Shown here in pieces: positions 4,115-12,439 of a DNA stretch of 50,955 nt. The translations under genes and the position numbers were made by a program. The stretch covers positions 29,859 to 80,813 of the forward strand of contig MFER01000006.1 of NCBI GenBank assembly GCA_001777655.1, read 5' to 3'. The DNA comes from Candidatus Doudnabacteria bacterium RIFCSPHIGHO2_02_FULL_43_13b (lineage in GTDB: Bacteria; Patescibacteriota; Doudnabacteria; UBA920; O2-02-FULL-48-8). Under the pieces are notes generated by a model. That model saw only the letters and a list, made by a program, of their open reading frames with translations. It searched no databases and was not told where the DNA came from. How positions within the stretch are numbered: position 1 is the first letter of the stretch; every line of letters begins with the position of its first letter.

Positions 4115-4206
4115 CTAATAATTACAAAGAATGATAATTGTTGAAATAATTAAATTTATACTATACAGATAATTCCACAAAAGTGGTGCTGGATAAAAGC
4201 ATAAAC

Positions 4207-7185
4207 ATGGAACTTTACGACCACCAAAAAATAGAAAAGAAGTGGCAGAAGGCCTGGGAGAAGGACGGGTTATATAAAACCCCGGACCTGCCTGGCCGGC
4301 AGGCAGGGAAGCCCAAAAAGAAAAAATATATTTTAGATATGTTTCCGTATATATCTGGAGCCGGACTGCATGTAGGCCATCCGGAAGGATATACTGCCAC
4401 GGATATTTATAGTCGCTTTTTAAGAATGCAGGGTTATGATGTCTTACACCCAATCGGTTGGGATGCTTTTGGCTTGCCCACTGAGAACTTCGCGATTAAA
4501 TCGGGGATTCCGCCCCAGGAATCAGTAAAGAAATATGCCGATCGTTTCGAAGAACAGATTAGGTCGTTTGGCTTTTCTTATGACTGGGATCGATTGATTA
4601 ATACTTCGGATCCGAAATATTACCGCTGGACGCAGTGGCTATTTTTACAATTATATAAACATGGTTTGGCCTATAAAAAAGAGGCCTACGTCAACTGGTG
4701 CCCGAAGGATCAAACCGTGCTGGCCAACGAGCAGGTCGTGGATGGCTGTTGCGAACGCTGTGGGACAAAAGTCGAGCAAAAACTTTTGAATCAGTGGTTT
4801 TTCAAGATAACAGATTATGCGGACCGACTGCTCGCGGACTTAGACGGACTGGATTGGCCAGAGCCGATTAAGGCGATGCAGAGAAATTGGATCGGCAAAA
4901 GCGAGGGCGCGGAGATTGAGTTTGAGATCTCCGATTCCAAGGTGAAGCGGTTTGTTATTTTACACGGTAAGCACGGAACTTCTAAATTAAATTTTATCCC
5001 ATGGTTGAAATCTAGTCTTGAGAAACAGGGATACGAGGTCCAAGCACCCGATATGCCAGGTACAGAAGAGCCGAATGATTTAGAGCAGGCGGATTTTGTG
5101 CAGAAAAATTGCAAATTAGATAAAAATACTGTCATTCTCGGTCATTCCTTTGGAGGAATTGTGGCATTGCGACTGTTAGAAAGAGGTATTGGGGTTCATG
5201 GCGTAGTTTTTGCCGCAACTCCGATGTCGAGTACGTTTTTAGATGGCAAAGTTCGGCGAACTGTGGCTGAGGCTATCAACCGCGGGTTTGATTTCGAAAA
5301 AATTAAACGGCAAACTGATTATGTTAAAATTTTAGTGGATTCAACTGATACGGTTGTACGACTTCAAGATGGCGATATTTTGGCCGATAAATTAAATTCG
5401 TTGAAGCAGCTGTTTGCGGGCACAGTACCGCATTTTTGTGGAAAAGAGGAACCAGCACTTTTAGAAGCGCTTACGTCAAAAATTAAAGTCTTCACCACCC
5501 GAGTTGATACTTTATTTGGCGCCACTTATTTAGTTTTGGCGCCGGAACACCCTCTGGTGGATCAAATCACAACTGCTGATCAGAAAAATTACGTAATTAA
5601 TTACGTAATTAAATCCAAAGAGAAAACCGAACTGCAAAGAACCGCGCTGGAAAAAGAAAAAACTGGGGTGTTTACCGGTGGTTTCGCCATCAACCCCGCA
5701 ACCAAAGAAAAAATTCCAGTCTGGATCGCGGATTATGTGCTTATGGGTTATGGCACCGGCGCGATCATGGCTGTACCGGCTCATGATGAAAGGGATTTTG
5801 AGTTTGCGAAAAAATACAAACTGCCGATCAGACAAGTGATAGAGCCGCCAAAGGTTATAAATGCCCTAACGGATATTTCCCCTGCTCCTGATGGGATTTT
5901 CGGCGTCCTGCCCACAGATTTAGAAAGCGATTGCTGGATTGGCGATGGGACGCTTATTAATTCTGGTGACTATGATGGACATAAATCAGAAAAAGTCAGA
6001 ATGCAGATGACAAAAGAATTTGGCCAACTTAAAATCCAATACAAACTCCGCGATTGGCTGGTTTCCCGCCAAAGATACTGGGGCGCACCGATCCCGATTA
6101 TTTATTGCGATGATTGCGGGAAGCAGGCAGTGCCAGAAAAAGATCTACCGGTGTTATTGCCGACCGATGTGGACTTTCTGCCAACAGGCGAATCGCCGAT
6201 TGCTCGATCTAAATCTTTCCACCAAGTGAAATGTCCAAACTGCGGCCAGGCGGCGCGGCGGGATTCGGATACCATGGATACGTTCGTAGATTCCGCTTGG
6301 TATTTTTACCGGTTTACTGATCCGCATAATGACAAACAATGGGCCGATAAAAAACAGATTAAACAGTGGCTGCCAGTGGACGTGTATGTGGGCGGGGCCG
6401 AGCATGCGGTGTTGCATTTACTTTACGCCAGGTTTATTACCAAGGCTTTTCGAGATTTTAAATTGATAGATTTTGAGGAACCATTTTCGAAATTACGCAA
6501 CCAAGGCCTAATTTTGGGGCCGGATGGCGAAAAGATGAGTAAGTCTCGAGGTAACGTGATTAACCCAGACGAGGTGATTGCCGAATGGGGCGCCGATGCC
6601 TTCCGGCTATACGAAATGTTCATGGGGCCCTTGGAAGACAGCAAGCCTTGGAACACTACAGGTATCGTTGGTCTGAGCAGGTTTTTGGAAAAAGTTTGGA
6701 GACATGGCACGCGTCATCCTGAACTTGATTCAGGATCCAGCATAAAGATTCACAAGCTTATCAAAAAAATCGGGTCAGACATCGAATTTTTTAAATTCAA
6801 TACGGGGATTGCGGCGTTCATGCAGTTTTTGAACGAAAACAAATCACTGTCAAAACAAGATCTGGAAGTATTTTTGGTCTTGTTAGCGCCATTTGCACCG
6901 CATATTACCGAAGAGCTTTGGCACAATTTCGGTCATAAAGATTCGATTCATCAGCAACCGTGGCCAAAATTTGACGAGAAACTGATCGAGGATAAAAACG
7001 TGACAATAGTAGTCCAAATTTTGGGCCGAGTCCGCGCTTCGTTTGAATTGCCAGCAGGCACAAGCCAGCAGGCAGTAAAAGATAAAGCCATTAGCAATGC
7101 CAATGTCAAAAAATATCTGGACGGAAAACAAATCATCAAAGAAATTTTCGTGCCGGATAAGTTGATTAATTTTGTGGTGAAATAA
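4207..7185 (+). CDS. leuS: Leucyl-tRNA synthetase with an inserted alpha/beta-hydrolase domain
   Basis: HVGHPEGY (HIGH), KMSKSRGN, CP1 editing motif TTRVDTLFGATY, and the YGTGAIMAVPAHDERDFEFA block. The track ORF starts at GTG 4183; ATG 4207 (MELYDHQKIEKKWQ) fits family N-termini better. Confidence 0.9.
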   Translation: MELYDHQKIEKKWQKAWEKDGLYKTPDLPGRQAGKPKKKKYILDMFPYISGAGLHVGHPEGYTATDIYSRFLRMQGYDVLHPIGWDAFGLPTENFAIKSGIPPQESVKKYADRFEEQIRSFGFSYDWDRLINTSDPKYYRWTQWLFLQLYKHGLAYKKEAYVNWCPKDQTVLANEQVVDGCCERCGTKVEQKLLNQWFFKITDYADRLLADLDGLDWPEPIKAMQRNWIGKSEGAEIEFEISDSKVKRFVILHGKHGTSKLNFIPWLKSSLEKQGYEVQAPDMPGTEEPNDLEQADFVQKNCKLDKNTVILGHSFGGIVALRLLERGIGVHGVVFAATPMSSTFLDGKVRRTVAEAINRGFDFEKIKRQTDYVKILVDSTDTVVRLQDGDILADKLNSLKQLFAGTVPHFCGKEEPALLEALTSKIKVFTTRVDTLFGATYLVLAPEHPLVDQITTADQKNYVINYVIKSKEKTELQRTALEKEKTGVFTGGFAINPATKEKIPVWIADYVLMGYGTGAIMAVPAHDERDFEFAKKYKLPIRQVIEPPKVINALTDISPAPDGIFGVLPTDLESDCWIGDGTLINSGDYDGHKSEKVRMQMTKEFGQLKIQYKLRDWLVSRQRYWGAPIPIIYCDDCGKQAVPEKDLPVLLPTDVDFLPTGESPIARSKSFHQVKCPNCGQAARRDSDTMDTFVDSAWYFYRFTDPHNDKQWADKKQIKQWLPVDVYVGGAEHAVLHLLYARFITKAFRDFKLIDFEEPFSKLRNQGLILGPDGEKMSKSRGNVINPDEVIAEWGADAFRLYEMFMGPLEDSKPWNTTGIVGLSRFLEKVWRHGTRHPELDSGSSIKIHKLIKKIGSDIEFFKFNTGIAAFMQFLNENKSLSKQDLEVFLVLLAPFAPHITEELWHNFGHKDSIHQQPWPKFDEKLIEDKNVTIVVQILGRVRASFELPAGTSQQAVKDKAISNANVKKYLDGKQIIKEIFVPDKLINFVVK

Positions 7186-11010: not shown

Positions 11011-11096
11011 GGCCGAGTGGCGGAATGGCAGACGCAGTGGACTCAAAATCCACCGATCGCAAGATCATGTGGGTTCGACTCCCTCCTCGGCCACCA
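11011..11096 (+). tRNA. tRNA-Leu (anticodon CAA), CCA encoded
   Basis: Acceptor ggccgag/ctcggcc. Anticodon stem gtgga/tccac with loop ctCAAaa. Long variable arm gatc-gcaa-gatc. T-loop ttcgact. Confidence 0.85.
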
Positions 11097-11102
11097 AAAA
11101 AT

Positions 11103-11957
11103 ATGGAAGAAAACAAACAATCACCAACTGAATCAAAATTCGTCCCCCCGCCAGAAAATTTGCCTGTGGTGAAATTGGCGGAAATTTCGATTGATCTGAT
11201 CAAACCGAATCCCTGGCAGCCTCGAAAGACTTTCAACGAACAATCCCTGCAGGAACTTTCAGCTTCGATCAAAGAACACGGGATATTGCAACCACTGGTG
11301 GTTGTGCCCCTAGTCGACGGATTCTATCAGTTGATTATTGGCGAAAGACGGTTGCGGGCGGCTAAACTCGCCGGCTTAACCTTGGTCCCTGCCGTGATTC
11401 ATGATTACATTGAGGAACAGAAAAAGCTGGAGCTGGCTTTGATTGAAAATATCCAACGACATAATCTTGATCCGATCGAAGAAGCTACCGCTTACCAACA
11501 GTTGATTGATCAATATAAATTAACCCAAGAAGAAGTCGCCAGGAAAGTTGGCAAAGGCAGAACCACGATCACGAACATGTTGCGTCTGCTTCACCTGCCT
11601 TTAAAAATCCAAAACGCCCTGTCAGAAGGAACCATCTCCGAAGGACATGCTCGCGCGATATTGGGCCTGACTGGCATGGAAAAGCAAATTGCTTTGTATG
11701 AAATGGTGATTGCTCAGAATATGACAGTCAGAGACGTGGAGGAAAAAGTGCGGGAACTTTTGGAGCGCGCCAAAATAGTCCGAGCGCCGCGTGTCAGCAC
11801 TGATCCGGCAATTCTGGCGCTTGAATCGGAATTGCGCGGCAAGCTGGGTACGAAGGTGCGAGTGCAGAAATCCGGGGAGTCTGGCAAGATCACCATCGAA
11901 TTTTATTCACAGGAAGAGCTAAATAGTTTTTTGGATAAGATTAATAAACTTGACTGA
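11103..11957 (+). CDS. parB: ParB/Spo0J chromosome-partitioning protein
   Basis: NPWQPRK, GILQPLVV, GERRLRAAKLAGL and an HTH (QEEVARKVGKGRTTITN). The track ORF start 11025 overlaps the tRNA; ATG 11103 is preferred. Confidence 0.85.
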   Translation: MEENKQSPTESKFVPPPENLPVVKLAEISIDLIKPNPWQPRKTFNEQSLQELSASIKEHGILQPLVVVPLVDGFYQLIIGERRLRAAKLAGLTLVPAVIHDYIEEQKKLELALIENIQRHNLDPIEEATAYQQLIDQYKLTQEEVARKVGKGRTTITNMLRLLHLPLKIQNALSEGTISEGHARAILGLTGMEKQIALYEMVIAQNMTVRDVEEKVRELLERAKIVRAPRVSTDPAILALESELRGKLGTKVRVQKSGESGKITIEFYSQEELNSFLDKINKLD

Positions 11958-12360: not shown

Positions 12361-12439
12361 GCGGTCGTAGCTTAAAGGCAGAGCGCTTGCGTCTCACCTG
12401 CGCAGGAGGTTGTGGGTTCGAATCCCATCGTCCGCTCCA
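12361..12439 (+). tRNA. Atypical tRNA / tRNA-like gene with a 4-nt-expanded anticodon arm (Val-CAC or Glu-CTC reading ambiguous)
   Basis: Acceptor gcggtcg/cgtccgc (one T:T). D arm gctt-aaaggca-gagc. T arm gtggg-ttcgaat-cccat. CCA encoded. The anticodon arm cttgcgt-ctcacct-gcgcagg is 2 bp longer than canonical. Confidence 0.5.

What the first reader, a model, noticed from the sequence alone, without database searches (positions are those of the whole stretch)
4939..5478. LeuRS carries an in-frame YdeN-like alpha/beta serine-hydrolase domain at the mouth of the CP1 editing domain
In canonical bacterial LeuRS, roughly a dozen residues separate the WIG(K/R)SEG-x-EIxF strand from the editing-domain T-rich motif (TTRPDT). 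Here about 180 extra residues sit between ..GAEIEFEISDS and KIKVFTTRVDTLFGATY.

The insert reads KRFVILHGKHGTSKLNFIPWLKSSLEKQGYEV..NTVILGHSFGGIVALRLL..ILVDSTDTVV..GTVPHFCGKEEP. From memory this matches the small YdeN/RBBP9 serine-hydrolase family. It has a GxSxG nucleophile elbow (GHSFG), the Asp strand (DSTDTVV) and the terminal His (PHF), so the catalytic triad looks intact.

HIGH, KMSKS and the CP1 editing motifs are all preserved, so this looks like a functional synthetase with an added esterase-type module right next to the hydrolytic editing site. An extra deacylase/esterase activity on mischarged tRNA or an aminoacyl-adenylate is a plausible hypothesis. I am not aware of a described LeuRS with this architecture.
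Basis: partly seen in the sequence, partly recalled or inferred. Interest (0 to 1): 0.8.

Follow-up and report, generated by a model that had tools for sequence, protein, structure and literature searches.

The report
Serine hydrolase nested inside leucyl-tRNA synthetase
This bacterium's leucyl-tRNA synthetase has a complete small serine hydrolase spliced into a surface hairpin, and across many uncultivated bacteria the same hydrolase is either built into this enzyme or encoded right beside it, which points to an undescribed helper of the protein-synthesis machinery.

Summary
ORF 4183-7185 (+) is an intact bacterial-type LeuRS. Nucleotides 4939-5478 (aa 253-432) add 178 residues at the tip of the first CP1 hairpin, five residues before the T-rich editing motif.

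The insert is a YdeN/RBBP9-type (PF06821) alpha/beta serine hydrolase with Ser322, Asp389 and His417. It is not a chimera: 92 of the 120 closest LeuRS homologues, from independent assemblies, carry it at the same site. Ser and His are invariant, the acid is Asp or Glu, and the CP1 editing residues are invariant.

The same hydrolase clade sits at four or more different LeuRS loops. It is gained, lost and swapped between close relatives, and syntenic relatives lack it.

The functional link to LeuRS is strengthened. Six of seven free-standing clade members examined lie directly beside leuS, one of them in an operon with a YbaK-like deacylase and an archaeal-type LeuRS.

Best reading (about 0.45): a LeuRS-tethered hydrolase of alpha-aminoacyl (thio)esters that clears LeuRS error products or by-products. 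I found no paper describing it. Related LeuRS genes also host NUDIX, GNAT and HAD inserts.

The parts
4183..7185 (+). Leucyl-tRNA synthetase gene, bacterial type, 1000 aa as called; the probable true start is ATG at 4207
   Evidence: (TIGR00396, 1022 bits). AF2 with a 120-sequence alignment gives pLDDT 90.7 and pTM 0.84. Foldseek top hits are T. thermophilus and E. coli LeuRS.
4939..5478 (+). Nested YdeN/RBBP9-type (PF06821) alpha/beta serine-hydrolase domain, aa 253-432, inserted in the turn of the first CP1 beta-hairpin
   Evidence: In the model it is a compact alpha/beta domain with six beta-strands (five of the listed minimum length, plus a short one at 285-287), pLDDT 93-98, joined by linkers of about 5 and 2 residues.
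4963..4968 (+). His261-Gly262, the HG oxyanion-hole motif at the end of strand beta1
   Evidence: Present in 88 of 92 nested homologues; coordinates checked.
5140..5154 (+). GHSFG nucleophile elbow; Ser322 is at nt 5146-5148
   Evidence: Ser present in 92 of 92. Aligns with RBBP9 Ser75.
5236..5256 (+). F352-x-D354-x3-R358 loop, conserved only in the LeuRS-associated clade. It is homologous to the RBBP9 102-108 loop that carries the alpha-amine anchor Glu108
   Evidence: alignment; RBBP9 data from PMC8866121.
5347..5349 (+). Catalytic Asp389
   Evidence: 87 Asp and 5 Glu among 92. Aligns with RBBP9 Asp138.
5431..5433 (+). Catalytic His417
   Evidence: Present in 92 of 92. Aligns with RBBP9 His165.
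5494..5511 (+). CP1 T-rich editing motif TTRVDT (aa 438-443), starting six residues after the insert ends
   Evidence: T, T, R, D and T are invariant in the 92 insert-bearing LeuRS. Equivalent to T. thermophilus 247-252.
5782..5796 (+). CP1 HDERD motif (aa 534-538), containing the universally conserved editing Asp
   Evidence: H, D, R and D are invariant in all 120 homologues.
5866..5916 (+). Low-confidence CP1 loop (aa 562-578). About a third of homologues carry a roughly 160-aa NUDIX domain here; the window has none
   Evidence: pLDDT below 50. NUDIX site mapped.
4369..4380 (+). HIGH signature (HVGH)
6532..6546 (+). KMSKS signature

Best explanation
The window encodes a working LeuRS that carries, in the turn of the first CP1 hairpin, an independently folding and catalytically competent YdeN/RBBP9-type serine hydrolase.

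The hydrolase belongs to a clade that is a dedicated partner of LeuRS in Patescibacteria (CPR). It is either nested in one of several LeuRS surface loops or encoded by the gene next to leuS.

The most likely mechanism is as follows. Like its characterised relative RBBP9, which needs a free alpha-amine and removes an N-terminal aminoacyl group, the domain uses Ser322/His417/Asp389 to hydrolyse an alpha-aminoacyl ester, thioester or amide. Being tethered to LeuRS, it would clear an error product or by-product of that enzyme. Candidates are released non-cognate aminoacyl-adenylate, mis-acylated tRNA(Leu) or aminoacyl-adenosine esters, and homocysteine thiolactone made by synthetic-site editing.

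It acts beside the intact CP1 editing site, not in place of it, and does not depend on an exact position relative to CP1.

Shown: the fold family, the conserved triad, recurrence, the LeuRS-specific linkage and the variable attachment site.

Inferred: the chemistry (aminoacyl (thio)ester or amide hydrolysis) and the identity of the substrate.
For: Family and catalytic residues:
- Family assignment rests.
- Ser is 92/92, His 92/92 and the acid is Asp or Glu in 92/92, across inserts that are only 20-93% identical to each other.
- The LeuRS-associated clade also conserves polar residues absent from ordinary free-standing YdeN-like proteins: E301, Q302, D354, R358, D386 and E423. D354 and R358 lie in the loop that carries the alpha-amine anchor Glu108 in RBBP9 (PMC8866121).

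Recurrence:
- 92 of the 120 nearest LeuRS homologues carry the insert.
- All 20 CPR genomes recovered from GTDB have the domain inside LeuRS.

LeuRS-specific linkage in every genetic configuration:
- Nested at the CP1 hairpin, the ZN-2 loop (L001, L024, P0105, P0155 and others), the NUDIX site (P0120) and an anticodon-domain loop (L026).
- Encoded as the gene directly upstream of an insert-free leuS in L002, L090/91, L092 and L095/96.
- Encoded directly downstream in L094.
- In L093, part of a hydrolase-hydrolase-YbaK-like deacylase-Ham1-archaeal-type LeuRS operon.
- Two more distant free-standing homologues used as controls have no leuS nearby.

Chemistry of characterised enzymes:
- RBBP9 is an aminopeptidase that requires a free alpha-amine (PMC8866121). 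It is also cited as a valacyclovir (valyl ester) hydrolase (reference list of PMC7730578).
- The other valacyclovirase, BPHL, is an efficient homocysteine thiolactonase (PMC4198189). BPHL's relationship to this insert was not tested here.

The CP1 editing residues are invariant with or without the insert, so the domain adds to editing and does not replace it.
Against: - No activity has been measured and no substrate is identified.
- The insert is dispensable. Close relatives with the same MetRS-TatD-LeuRS-Sua5-MFS-SHMT synteny have no insert and no hydrolase gene within 10 kb.
- The states (hydrolase, hydrolase+NUDIX, NUDIX only, none) are interleaved at the tips of the LeuRS tree.
- Hydrolase identity hardly tracks LeuRS identity (Spearman 0.12). 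For example P0018 and P0035 have 84% identical cores but 22% identical inserts. This fits an accessory, frequently exchanged function better than a core proofreading step.
- Rare members of the clade sit in Der, TsaD, SecA, AlaRS and ValRS.
- More distant relatives are fused to peptidase S51, adenylate kinase, Ham1, NUDIX or an aminoglycoside nucleotidyltransferase.
Confidence: 0.45

Rival explanations
1. The hydrolase is a positioned second editing site: it faces the CP1 pocket and receives the tRNA 3' end or the adenylate directly from it.
For: The insert ends six residues before the T-rich editing peptide. It is held by very short linkers with high pLDDT. The CP1 hairpin is by far the commonest site, at 92 of 120.
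Against: The same clade works from the ZN-2 loop, the NUDIX site, an anticodon-domain loop, or as a separate polypeptide. The N-terminal strand of an alpha/beta hydrolase enters from the side of the sheet opposite the catalytic Ser, so the active site should point away from the hairpin; this is inference, not measured. CP1 itself is fully intact.
Confidence: 0.1
2. Target-tethered detoxification. The hydrolase, and in relatives the GNAT, NUDIX and HAD inserts, destroys aminoacyl-nucleotide-type inhibitors of LeuRS. These would be leucyl-adenylate mimics, by analogy with the MccF peptidase and MccE/RimL acetyltransferase immunity to processed microcin C. That analogy is from my own knowledge.
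For: The distribution is patchy and cassette-like, as is typical of defence and resistance functions. In P0224 a GNAT sits together with the hydrolase at the same hairpin. NCBIfam has an 'IleRS with GNAT domain' family, NF040702. P0233 fuses a related hydrolase to an aminoglycoside 2''-nucleotidyltransferase domain. The attachment site is flexible.
Against: No LeuRS-directed natural product is known from these habitats. The linkage is almost exclusive to LeuRS and does not spread over the several synthetases that antibiotics target. The operon partner YbaK-like deacylase points to aminoacyl-tRNA, not to antibiotics.
Confidence: 0.15
3. Substrate supply. The domain is an aminopeptidase or dipeptidase that releases leucine from scavenged peptides next to LeuRS in an amino-acid auxotroph.
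For: RBBP9 is an aminopeptidase (PMC8866121). More distant free-standing relatives are fused to, or adjacent to, peptidase S51. The conserved Asp and Arg in the substrate loop could bind the amine and carboxylate of a dipeptide.
Against: It does not explain the accompanying NUDIX and Ham1 domains or the YbaK-like partner. Channelling of a freely diffusing amino acid gives little obvious benefit. Close relatives lack the domain altogether.
Confidence: 0.15
4. Passenger. The hydrolase has its own housekeeping role unrelated to LeuRS and merely rides in permissive loops of essential, constitutively expressed genes in streamlined genomes.
For: It also occurs inside SecA, Der, TsaD, UvrB, AlaRS and ValRS. 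Gain, loss and replacement are frequent. The triad would be conserved under this model too.
Against: LeuRS accounts for the great majority of nested cases. In the list of 150 representatives, about 60 are in LeuRS and the other hosts are singletons. At least four different LeuRS loops are used. Free-standing members keep leuS as their only constant neighbour while the rest of the gene context differs.
Confidence: 0.1
5. Assembly or gene-calling artefact (chimeric contig).
For: None beyond the fact that the source is probably a metagenome-assembled genome.
Against: The reading frame is continuous. The identical architecture occurs in more than 100 sequences from NCBI, JGI, ENA and Logan assemblies. 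The junctions are precise. The model is confident across both junctions.
Confidence: 0.01

Closest known systems
Bacterial LeuRS with CP1 editing domain (T. thermophilus 1H3N/2BYT, E. coli 4AQ7/4ARC)
   Same: All catalytic and editing motifs and the ZN-1/ZN-2 cysteines are shared, as is the overall fold. TMt is 0.75-0.84 and sequence identity 30-37%.
   Different: A 178-aa hydrolase replaces the turn of the hairpin at T. thermophilus residues 237-241. The leucine-specific domain (T. thermophilus about 581-636) is absent.
YdeN (B. subtilis, 1UXO) and RBBP9 (human, 2QS9/7OEX); Pfam PF06821 Ser_hydrolase
   Same: The minimal alpha/beta-hydrolase fold of about 180 aa, the HG, GHSxG, Asp and His motifs, and the PWLK and FDF-x-KIK motifs.
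   Different: It is nested inside another enzyme. It has clade-specific E301, Q302, F-x-D-x3-R, D386 and E423. The window's own sequence scores 19.1 bits against PF06821, below the cutoff of 22, although 22 of 24 relatives match at E <= 0.001.
Free-standing and fused aminoacyl-tRNA editing factors (YbaK/ProXp/INS, AlaX, DTD)
   Same: The proposed role is a hydrolase attached to, or encoded with, a synthetase that removes wrongly made aminoacyl esters. A YbaK-like gene shares an operon with this hydrolase and LeuRS in L093.
   Different: The fold and chemistry are unrelated: a Ser-His-Asp alpha/beta hydrolase that forms an acyl-enzyme intermediate. No deacylase activity has been shown.
BPHL valacyclovirase / homocysteine thiolactonase
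   Same: According to the title and abstract listed (PMC4198189), it hydrolyses a valyl-ester prodrug and homocysteine thiolactone, which synthetases produce when they reject homocysteine (abstract of PMC11312131). From my own knowledge it is also an alpha/beta serine hydrolase.
   Different: It belongs to a different alpha/beta-hydrolase family, is eukaryotic, and is not linked to a synthetase. The parallel is by chemistry only and homology was not tested here.
IleRS with a GNAT domain (NCBIfam NF040702)
   Same: A class Ia synthetase that carries an extra small-molecule-modifying enzyme domain (family listed).
   Different: The synthetase, the added domain and, presumably, the site all differ. 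I did not examine members of that family.

Membership tests
Bacterial-type leucine--tRNA ligase (TIGR00396) | Whole-protein score above the curated cutoff | tested here: met
   1022 bits against a cutoff of 548.
Bacterial-type leucine--tRNA ligase (TIGR00396) | HIGH and KMSKS class I signatures | tested here: met
   HVGH at aa 63-66 and KMSKS at aa 784-788.
Bacterial-type leucine--tRNA ligase (TIGR00396) | CP1 editing domain with the T-rich, GTG and HDxRD motifs | tested here: met
   PF13603 at 6.6e-63. TTRVDT, GTG and HDERD are present and invariant in homologues.
Bacterial-type leucine--tRNA ligase (TIGR00396) | LeuRS three-dimensional fold | tested here: met
   AF2 pLDDT 90.7. Foldseek E about 1e-80 to T. 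thermophilus and E. coli LeuRS.
Bacterial-type leucine--tRNA ligase (TIGR00396) | Leucylation and editing activity | not testable with these tools
   Needs biochemistry.
YdeN/RBBP9 serine hydrolases (Pfam PF06821) | Significant sequence similarity to the family and its solved members | tested here: met
   With phmmer, RBBP9 scores 1.7e-8 and YdeN 1.4e-6. With a profile, YdeN scores 1.8e-26 and RBBP9 1e-19, and the next hit is 5e-6. 22 of 24 relatives hit PF06821.
YdeN/RBBP9 serine hydrolases (Pfam PF06821) | Pfam gathering score reached by the window's own sequence | tested here: not met
   19.1 bits against a cutoff of 22 (E 0.0014). The broader Abhydrolase_1 and Abhydrolase_6 models do pass.
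YdeN/RBBP9 serine hydrolases (Pfam PF06821) | Ser-Asp-His triad and HG oxyanion motif in the family positions | tested here: met
   Ser322, Asp389, His417 and HG261-262 align with RBBP9 Ser75, Asp138 and His165 and are conserved.
YdeN/RBBP9 serine hydrolases (Pfam PF06821) | Compact lid-less alpha/beta fold of about 180 aa | tested here: met
   In the model, alternating beta/alpha elements span 256-430 with pLDDT 93-98. The isolated domain was not searched separately against the PDB.
YdeN/RBBP9 serine hydrolases (Pfam PF06821) | Serine-hydrolase activity | not testable with these tools
   Needs fluorophosphonate labelling or substrate assays.
Aminoacyl-tRNA trans-editing factors (YbaK/AlaX/DTD) | Homology to a known editing fold | tested here: not met
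   The insert gives only alpha/beta-hydrolase hits. This bears on membership only, not on whether it works like such a factor.
Aminoacyl-tRNA trans-editing factors (YbaK/AlaX/DTD) | Genomic or physical association with a synthetase | tested here: met
   Nested in LeuRS at four or more sites, or encoded adjacent to leuS.
Aminoacyl-tRNA trans-editing factors (YbaK/AlaX/DTD) | Deacylation of mischarged tRNA | not testable with these tools
   Needs biochemistry.
Intein or other self-excising insertion | Splice-junction residues (N-terminal Cys/Ser, C-terminal His-Asn followed by Cys/Ser/Thr) or flanking repeats | tested here: not met
   The junctions read ...SDS|KVKRF... and ...ALTS|KIKVF.... No flanking direct or inverted repeats were found.

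The most novel reading that the evidence does not exclude
The clade defines a previously unrecognised, LeuRS-dedicated proofreading or clean-up factor based on a Ser-His-Asp alpha/beta hydrolase. It would be a new fold and a new chemistry for synthetase quality control. It exists interchangeably as a nested domain at several loops or as a neighbouring gene.

It would be one module of a wider system in CPR, and possibly in DPANN-like lineages, in which LeuRS serves as a scaffold for small damage-control enzymes (serine hydrolase, NUDIX, GNAT, HAD, with Ham1 and YbaK-like genes alongside) that are swapped like cassettes between lineages.
Probability: 0.35. Interest if true: 0.85.

Novelty: new variant of a known kind. 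Interest (0 to 1): 0.72.

Why it matters
Synthetase proofreading is thought to rest on a small, well-catalogued set of editing folds: CP1, INS/YbaK, the AlaX/ThrRS N2 domain, DTD and PheRS B3/B4. A serine hydrolase that acts through an acyl-enzyme intermediate and is tied to LeuRS in every possible genetic arrangement across a large bacterial radiation would add a new player.

It gives a directly testable question, because one point mutant (S322A) and a handful of substrates would settle it.

It also exposes an unusual evolutionary behaviour. Whole enzyme domains are inserted, relocated, exchanged and deleted in surface loops of an essential synthetase, and the synthetase and its own editing site stay intact throughout.

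For CPR biology it may show how organisms with minimal genomes deal with non-cognate amino acids or reactive by-products that they cannot metabolise.

Tried and rejected
- Single-sequence AlphaFold of the whole protein was useless for LeuRS (pLDDT 36.6), although the hydrolase segment folded on its own. I repeated it with a 120-sequence alignment.
- Model coordinates are not exposed to the script environment. The distance and orientation between Ser322 and the CP1 pocket therefore could not be measured. Foldseek of the whole model returns only LeuRS structures.
Only 20 true relatives were recovered and the other 60 loci are unrelated hydrolases. It is not a census.
- A search for flanking repeats or a target-site duplication around the insert found nothing meaningful.
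- An intein-like element was rejected from the junction residues.
- I tested the idea that the hydrolase replaces a decayed CP1. It is rejected as a general explanation because the CP1 residues are invariant in all 92 carriers. One lineage (P0105, L002) does have a degenerate T-rich motif, but P0105 also lacks the catalytic Asp.
- The first protein search, with the insert alone, returned only 6 hits because of the word-index limit. The exhaustive representative search and the full-length search were needed.
- Four literature searches for LeuRS or aaRS combined with hydrolase, NUDIX, CPR or Patescibacteria found no description.
- The NJ trees are quick distance trees. I use them only for close pairs and broad clustering.


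Full report
**What is in the window.** A single uninterrupted ORF at 4183..7185 (+) encodes a 1000-aa protein. It scores 1022 bits against the bacterial LeuRS equivalog TIGR00396, whose cutoff is 548. Pfam finds the class I catalytic domain, the LeuRS editing domain PF13603 and the anticodon-binding domain, plus alpha/beta-hydrolase models over aa 256-356. Homologues and T. thermophilus LeuRS align from Met9, so the real start is probably ATG 4207. HVGH, KMSKS, the CP1 motifs TTRVDT, GTG and HDERD, and the ZN-2 CDDC are all present. The gene lies in a housekeeping row, MetRS-TatD-LeuRS-Sua5/YrdC-MFS-SHMT.

**The insert.** Aligned to T. thermophilus LeuRS, the window matches up to residue 240 (...SEGAEILFPVEGKEV) and resumes at 241 (RIPVFTTRPDT...). 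Insert-free close relatives have 41 residues between MQxNW and GATY where the window has 219. So 178 residues, nt 4939-5478 exactly as reported, replace only the turn of the first CP1 beta-hairpin, and the insert ends five residues before the T-rich editing peptide begins.

- On its own the segment passes the Abhydrolase_1 and Abhydrolase_6 cutoffs.
- Its best solved relatives are RBBP9 (1.7e-8) and B. subtilis YdeN (1.4e-6).
- A profile of 24 such inserts raises these to 1e-19 and 1.8e-26, with the next PDB hit at 5e-6.
- 22 of the 24 inserts hit PF06821.
- The window's own sequence is just under the PF06821 cutoff, at 19.1 against 22 bits.
- GHSFG Ser322, Asp389 in the TDT strand and His417 align with RBBP9 Ser75, Asp138 and His165.

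**Structure.** With a 120-sequence alignment AlphaFold gives pLDDT 90.7 and pTM 0.84. The insert is a compact alpha/beta domain of six strands (five listed, plus a short one at 285-287) with pLDDT 93-98. It is joined to the hairpin strands by about five residues on one side and two on the other. The whole model superposes on T. thermophilus and E. coli LeuRS. I could not obtain coordinates, so the mutual orientation of the two hydrolytic pockets is unknown. From alpha/beta-hydrolase topology, the first strand enters at the edge of the sheet opposite the catalytic serine. I therefore expect the pocket to point away from the attachment point, but this is inference.

**It is not an artefact, and it is common.**

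- The 120 best LeuRS homologues come from NCBI, JGI, ENA and Logan assemblies. They are named Doudna-, Sung-, Komeili-, Kerfeld-, Uhr- and Kaiserbacteria, Parcubacteria and Paceibacterota.
- 92 of them carry a hydrolase at exactly this hairpin.
- In these 92, Ser and His are invariant, the acid is Asp in 87 and Glu in 5, and HG is present in 88. The inserts themselves are only 20-93% identical to one another.
- The CP1 residues T438, T439, R440, D442, T443, G524, G526, H534, D535, R537 and D538 are invariant in all 92. They are also invariant in 27 of the 28 homologues with no insert at this hairpin.
- All 20 true relatives recovered from a scan of GTDB species genomes are CPR genomes with the domain inside LeuRS.

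**The position is not fixed.** In the syntenic but frameshift-ridden contig L001, a 65%-identical hydrolase sits after the first CxxC of the ZN-2 module, at window aa about 658, and the CP1 hairpin is unoccupied.

- The ZN-2 site recurs in P0093, P0105, P0155, P0173, P0176, P0179, P0230 and L024.
- P0120 has the hydrolase at the CP1 site that normally holds NUDIX.
- L026 has it in an anticodon-domain loop, between window aa 839 and 855.
- ZN-2-site domains keep Ser and His but vary at the acid column.

**It is an accessory, exchangeable module.** On a distance tree of 740 core LeuRS columns, the states are interleaved at the tips. The states are hydrolase only (59), hydrolase plus NUDIX (32), NUDIX only by insert length (6, one of which, P0120, actually holds a hydrolase segment at that site), none (20), ZN-2-site hydrolase only (2), and one sequence (P0107) with the CP1 hydrolase, NUDIX and an unidentified ZN-2-site insert. 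Examples of close pairs in different states are P0018 (hydrolase) with P0045 (NUDIX), P0012 (hydrolase) with P0038 (none), and P0029 (hydrolase) with P0032 (both).

Hydrolase identity barely follows LeuRS-core identity (Spearman 0.12). At least two divergent hydrolase types, of 56 and 25 members, are scattered over the tree. P0018 and P0035 are 84% identical in the core but 22% in the insert.

Two insert-free relatives with the same gene order as the window have no hydrolase gene within 10 kb: L008 (a Doudnabacteria genome) and L009.

**Yet it is specifically tied to LeuRS.** An exhaustive HMMER scan of 1.84 billion representatives found 1107 relatives. Among the best 150, roughly 60 are LeuRS or LeuRS fragments. 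In a domain tree, the nested LeuRS copies of all sites form one broad clade, separate from the ordinary free-standing YdeN-like proteins. This clade shares polar residues that the others lack: E301, Q302, F352-x-D354-x3-R358, D386 and E423.

A few free-standing proteins fall inside the clade. I looked at the genomic context of seven:

| Protein | Locus | Position relative to leuS |
|---|---|---|
| P0001 | L002 | 2 nt upstream |
| P0143 | L090/91 | 6 nt upstream of an 809-aa LeuRS |
| P0153 | L092 | 36 nt upstream of an 801-aa LeuRS |
| P0172 | L095/96 | 24 nt upstream of a NUDIX-only LeuRS |
| P0157 | L094 | 2 nt downstream of an 806-aa LeuRS, in the window's own synteny |
| P0139 | L093 | in the row hydrolase-hydrolase-YbaK-like deacylase-Ham1-archaeal-type LeuRS (TIGR00395, 784 bits) |
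| P0130 | L003 | no leuS on its 3-kb contig |

Apart from LeuRS, the neighbouring genes differ between these loci. Two more distant free-standing homologues used as controls have no leuS nearby; one is next to a peptidase S51 gene. This is a small sample, but fusion at several sites together with conserved adjacency on both sides is the classic signature of a functional partnership.

**Exceptions and wider context.**

- Single representatives of the clade are nested in Der/EngA, TsaD, SecA, AlaRS and ValRS.
- More distant relatives are nested in UvrB or fused to Ham1, adenylate kinase, NUDIX, peptidase S51 or an aminoglycoside 2''-nucleotidyltransferase domain.
- LeuRS in this radiation also hosts other small enzymes. 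These are a NUDIX domain with an intact NUDIX box between window aa about 555 and 585, whose weak best PDB hit is an Ap4A hydrolase; a GNAT next to the hydrolase in P0224; and a HAD domain in P0109.
- The window has only a 17-residue low-confidence loop at the NUDIX site.

**Mechanism.** What is known about the family fits an aminoacyl substrate.

- RBBP9 removes an N-terminal residue only if the alpha-amine is free. The amine is anchored by Glu108 in a loop (PMC8866121). That loop aligns with the clade-specific F-x-D-x3-R loop here.
- RBBP9 is also cited as a valacyclovir (valyl ester) hydrolase.
- The other valacyclovirase, BPHL, is an efficient homocysteine thiolactonase (PMC4198189). Homocysteine thiolactone is what synthetases make when they reject homocysteine (PMC11312131 abstract).

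I therefore favour, at about 0.45, a LeuRS-tethered hydrolase of alpha-aminoacyl esters, thioesters or amides. It would clear something LeuRS makes in error or as a by-product, and it would act alongside an intact CP1. The variable attachment site and the free-standing forms argue that the substrate is released or flexible, not handed over inside a fixed channel.

The rivals are:

- detoxification of aminoacyl-nucleotide inhibitors, supported by the patchy cassette-like pattern and the GNAT co-insert (0.15);
- a leucine-releasing aminopeptidase (0.15);
- an unrelated passenger function (0.10).

None can be excluded without biochemistry.

**Novelty.** The sequences are in public databases, labelled simply 'leucine--tRNA ligase' or 'class I tRNA ligase family protein'. 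Four full-text searches found no paper describing a LeuRS with a hydrolase or NUDIX insert, or an alpha/beta-hydrolase partner of LeuRS. A 2026 survey of domain insertions treats the LeuRS editing domain purely as an inserted module and does not mention this case. I rate it a new variant of a known kind: a synthetase with an added hydrolytic module. The fold, the insertion behaviour and the evolutionary dynamics are all unusual.

Noticed in passing
window 5866-5916 (aa 562-578); homologues such as P0032, P0009 and P0024: By insert length, about a third of related LeuRS (39 of 120) carry a 150-200-aa insert at this CP1 loop; Pfam confirmed it as a NUDIX domain with an intact NUDIX box in P0032, and the precomputed Pfam column lists PF00293 for most of the others. 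They carry it with or without the hydrolase. The window has only a low-confidence loop there. The best PDB hit of the NUDIX insert is a weak match to an Ap4A hydrolase.
   Followed up: partly
P0224, P0109, P0107, P0186, P0134 (LeuRS homologues): Other enzymes are nested in CPR LeuRS. P0224 has a GNAT acetyltransferase beside the hydrolase at the CP1 hairpin. P0109 has a HAD-type hydrolase near window aa 693. P0107 has an unidentified 130-aa insert at ZN-2. P0186 and P0134 have one or two NUDIX-box-containing segments (identified by eye from the sequence, not scanned against Pfam) ahead of the NWIGKSEG strand.
   Followed up: partly
P0165, P0181, P0182, P0195, P0164, P0241, P0207, P0211, P0233, P0200/P0249: The same PF06821 domain is nested in or fused to SecA, Der/EngA, TsaD, AlaRS, ValRS, UvrB, Ham1, adenylate kinase, an aminoglycoside 2''-nucleotidyltransferase domain and peptidase S51.
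   Followed up: partly
L093:5001-9882 (assembly GCA_020049755.1): A gene row of hydrolase, hydrolase, YbaK-like Cys-tRNA(Pro)-deacylase-family protein, Ham1/ITPase and archaeal-type LeuRS, with 0-1 nt between stop and start or overlapping by 4 nt. The organism was not determined.
   Followed up: partly
L002:2831-4558 and P0105: One LeuRS lineage has a degenerate CP1 T-rich motif (YDSVPQT in place of TTRPDT) while keeping HDxRD. In L002 the hydrolase is a separate upstream gene. In P0105 it sits at ZN-2 but lacks the catalytic Asp.
   Followed up: partly
L001 (JGI 3300077760, Ga0645786_1124): A contig syntenic with the window in which TatD, LeuRS and SHMT are each split into several ORFs by frameshifts. 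This is either a low-accuracy assembly or a decaying genome. It is the clearest example of the hydrolase at the ZN-2 site.
   Followed up: no
window 4183-4209: The ORF is called from GTG 4183, but homologues and T. thermophilus LeuRS align from Met9, so ATG 4207 is the likelier start.
   Followed up: partly
window 6520-6535 (around aa 780-784): The window LeuRS lacks the leucine-specific domain (T. thermophilus residues about 581-636). The alignment jumps directly from residue 580 to 637.
   Followed up: no
window 11011-11096 and 11025-11957: A tRNA-Leu(CAA) gene overlaps the start of a 310-aa ORF on the same strand, so that ORF's start is probably miscalled. tRNA-Val(CAC) and tRNA-Pro(GGG) follow at 12361 and 13587.
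   Followed up: no
L094:717-1250 and L094:2045-2568: In the locus where the hydrolase follows leuS, a Ham1 gene lies 1.3 kb upstream of leuS (3.7 kb upstream of the hydrolase gene) and a RelB/ParE-type toxin-antitoxin pair lies immediately upstream of leuS.
   Followed up: no
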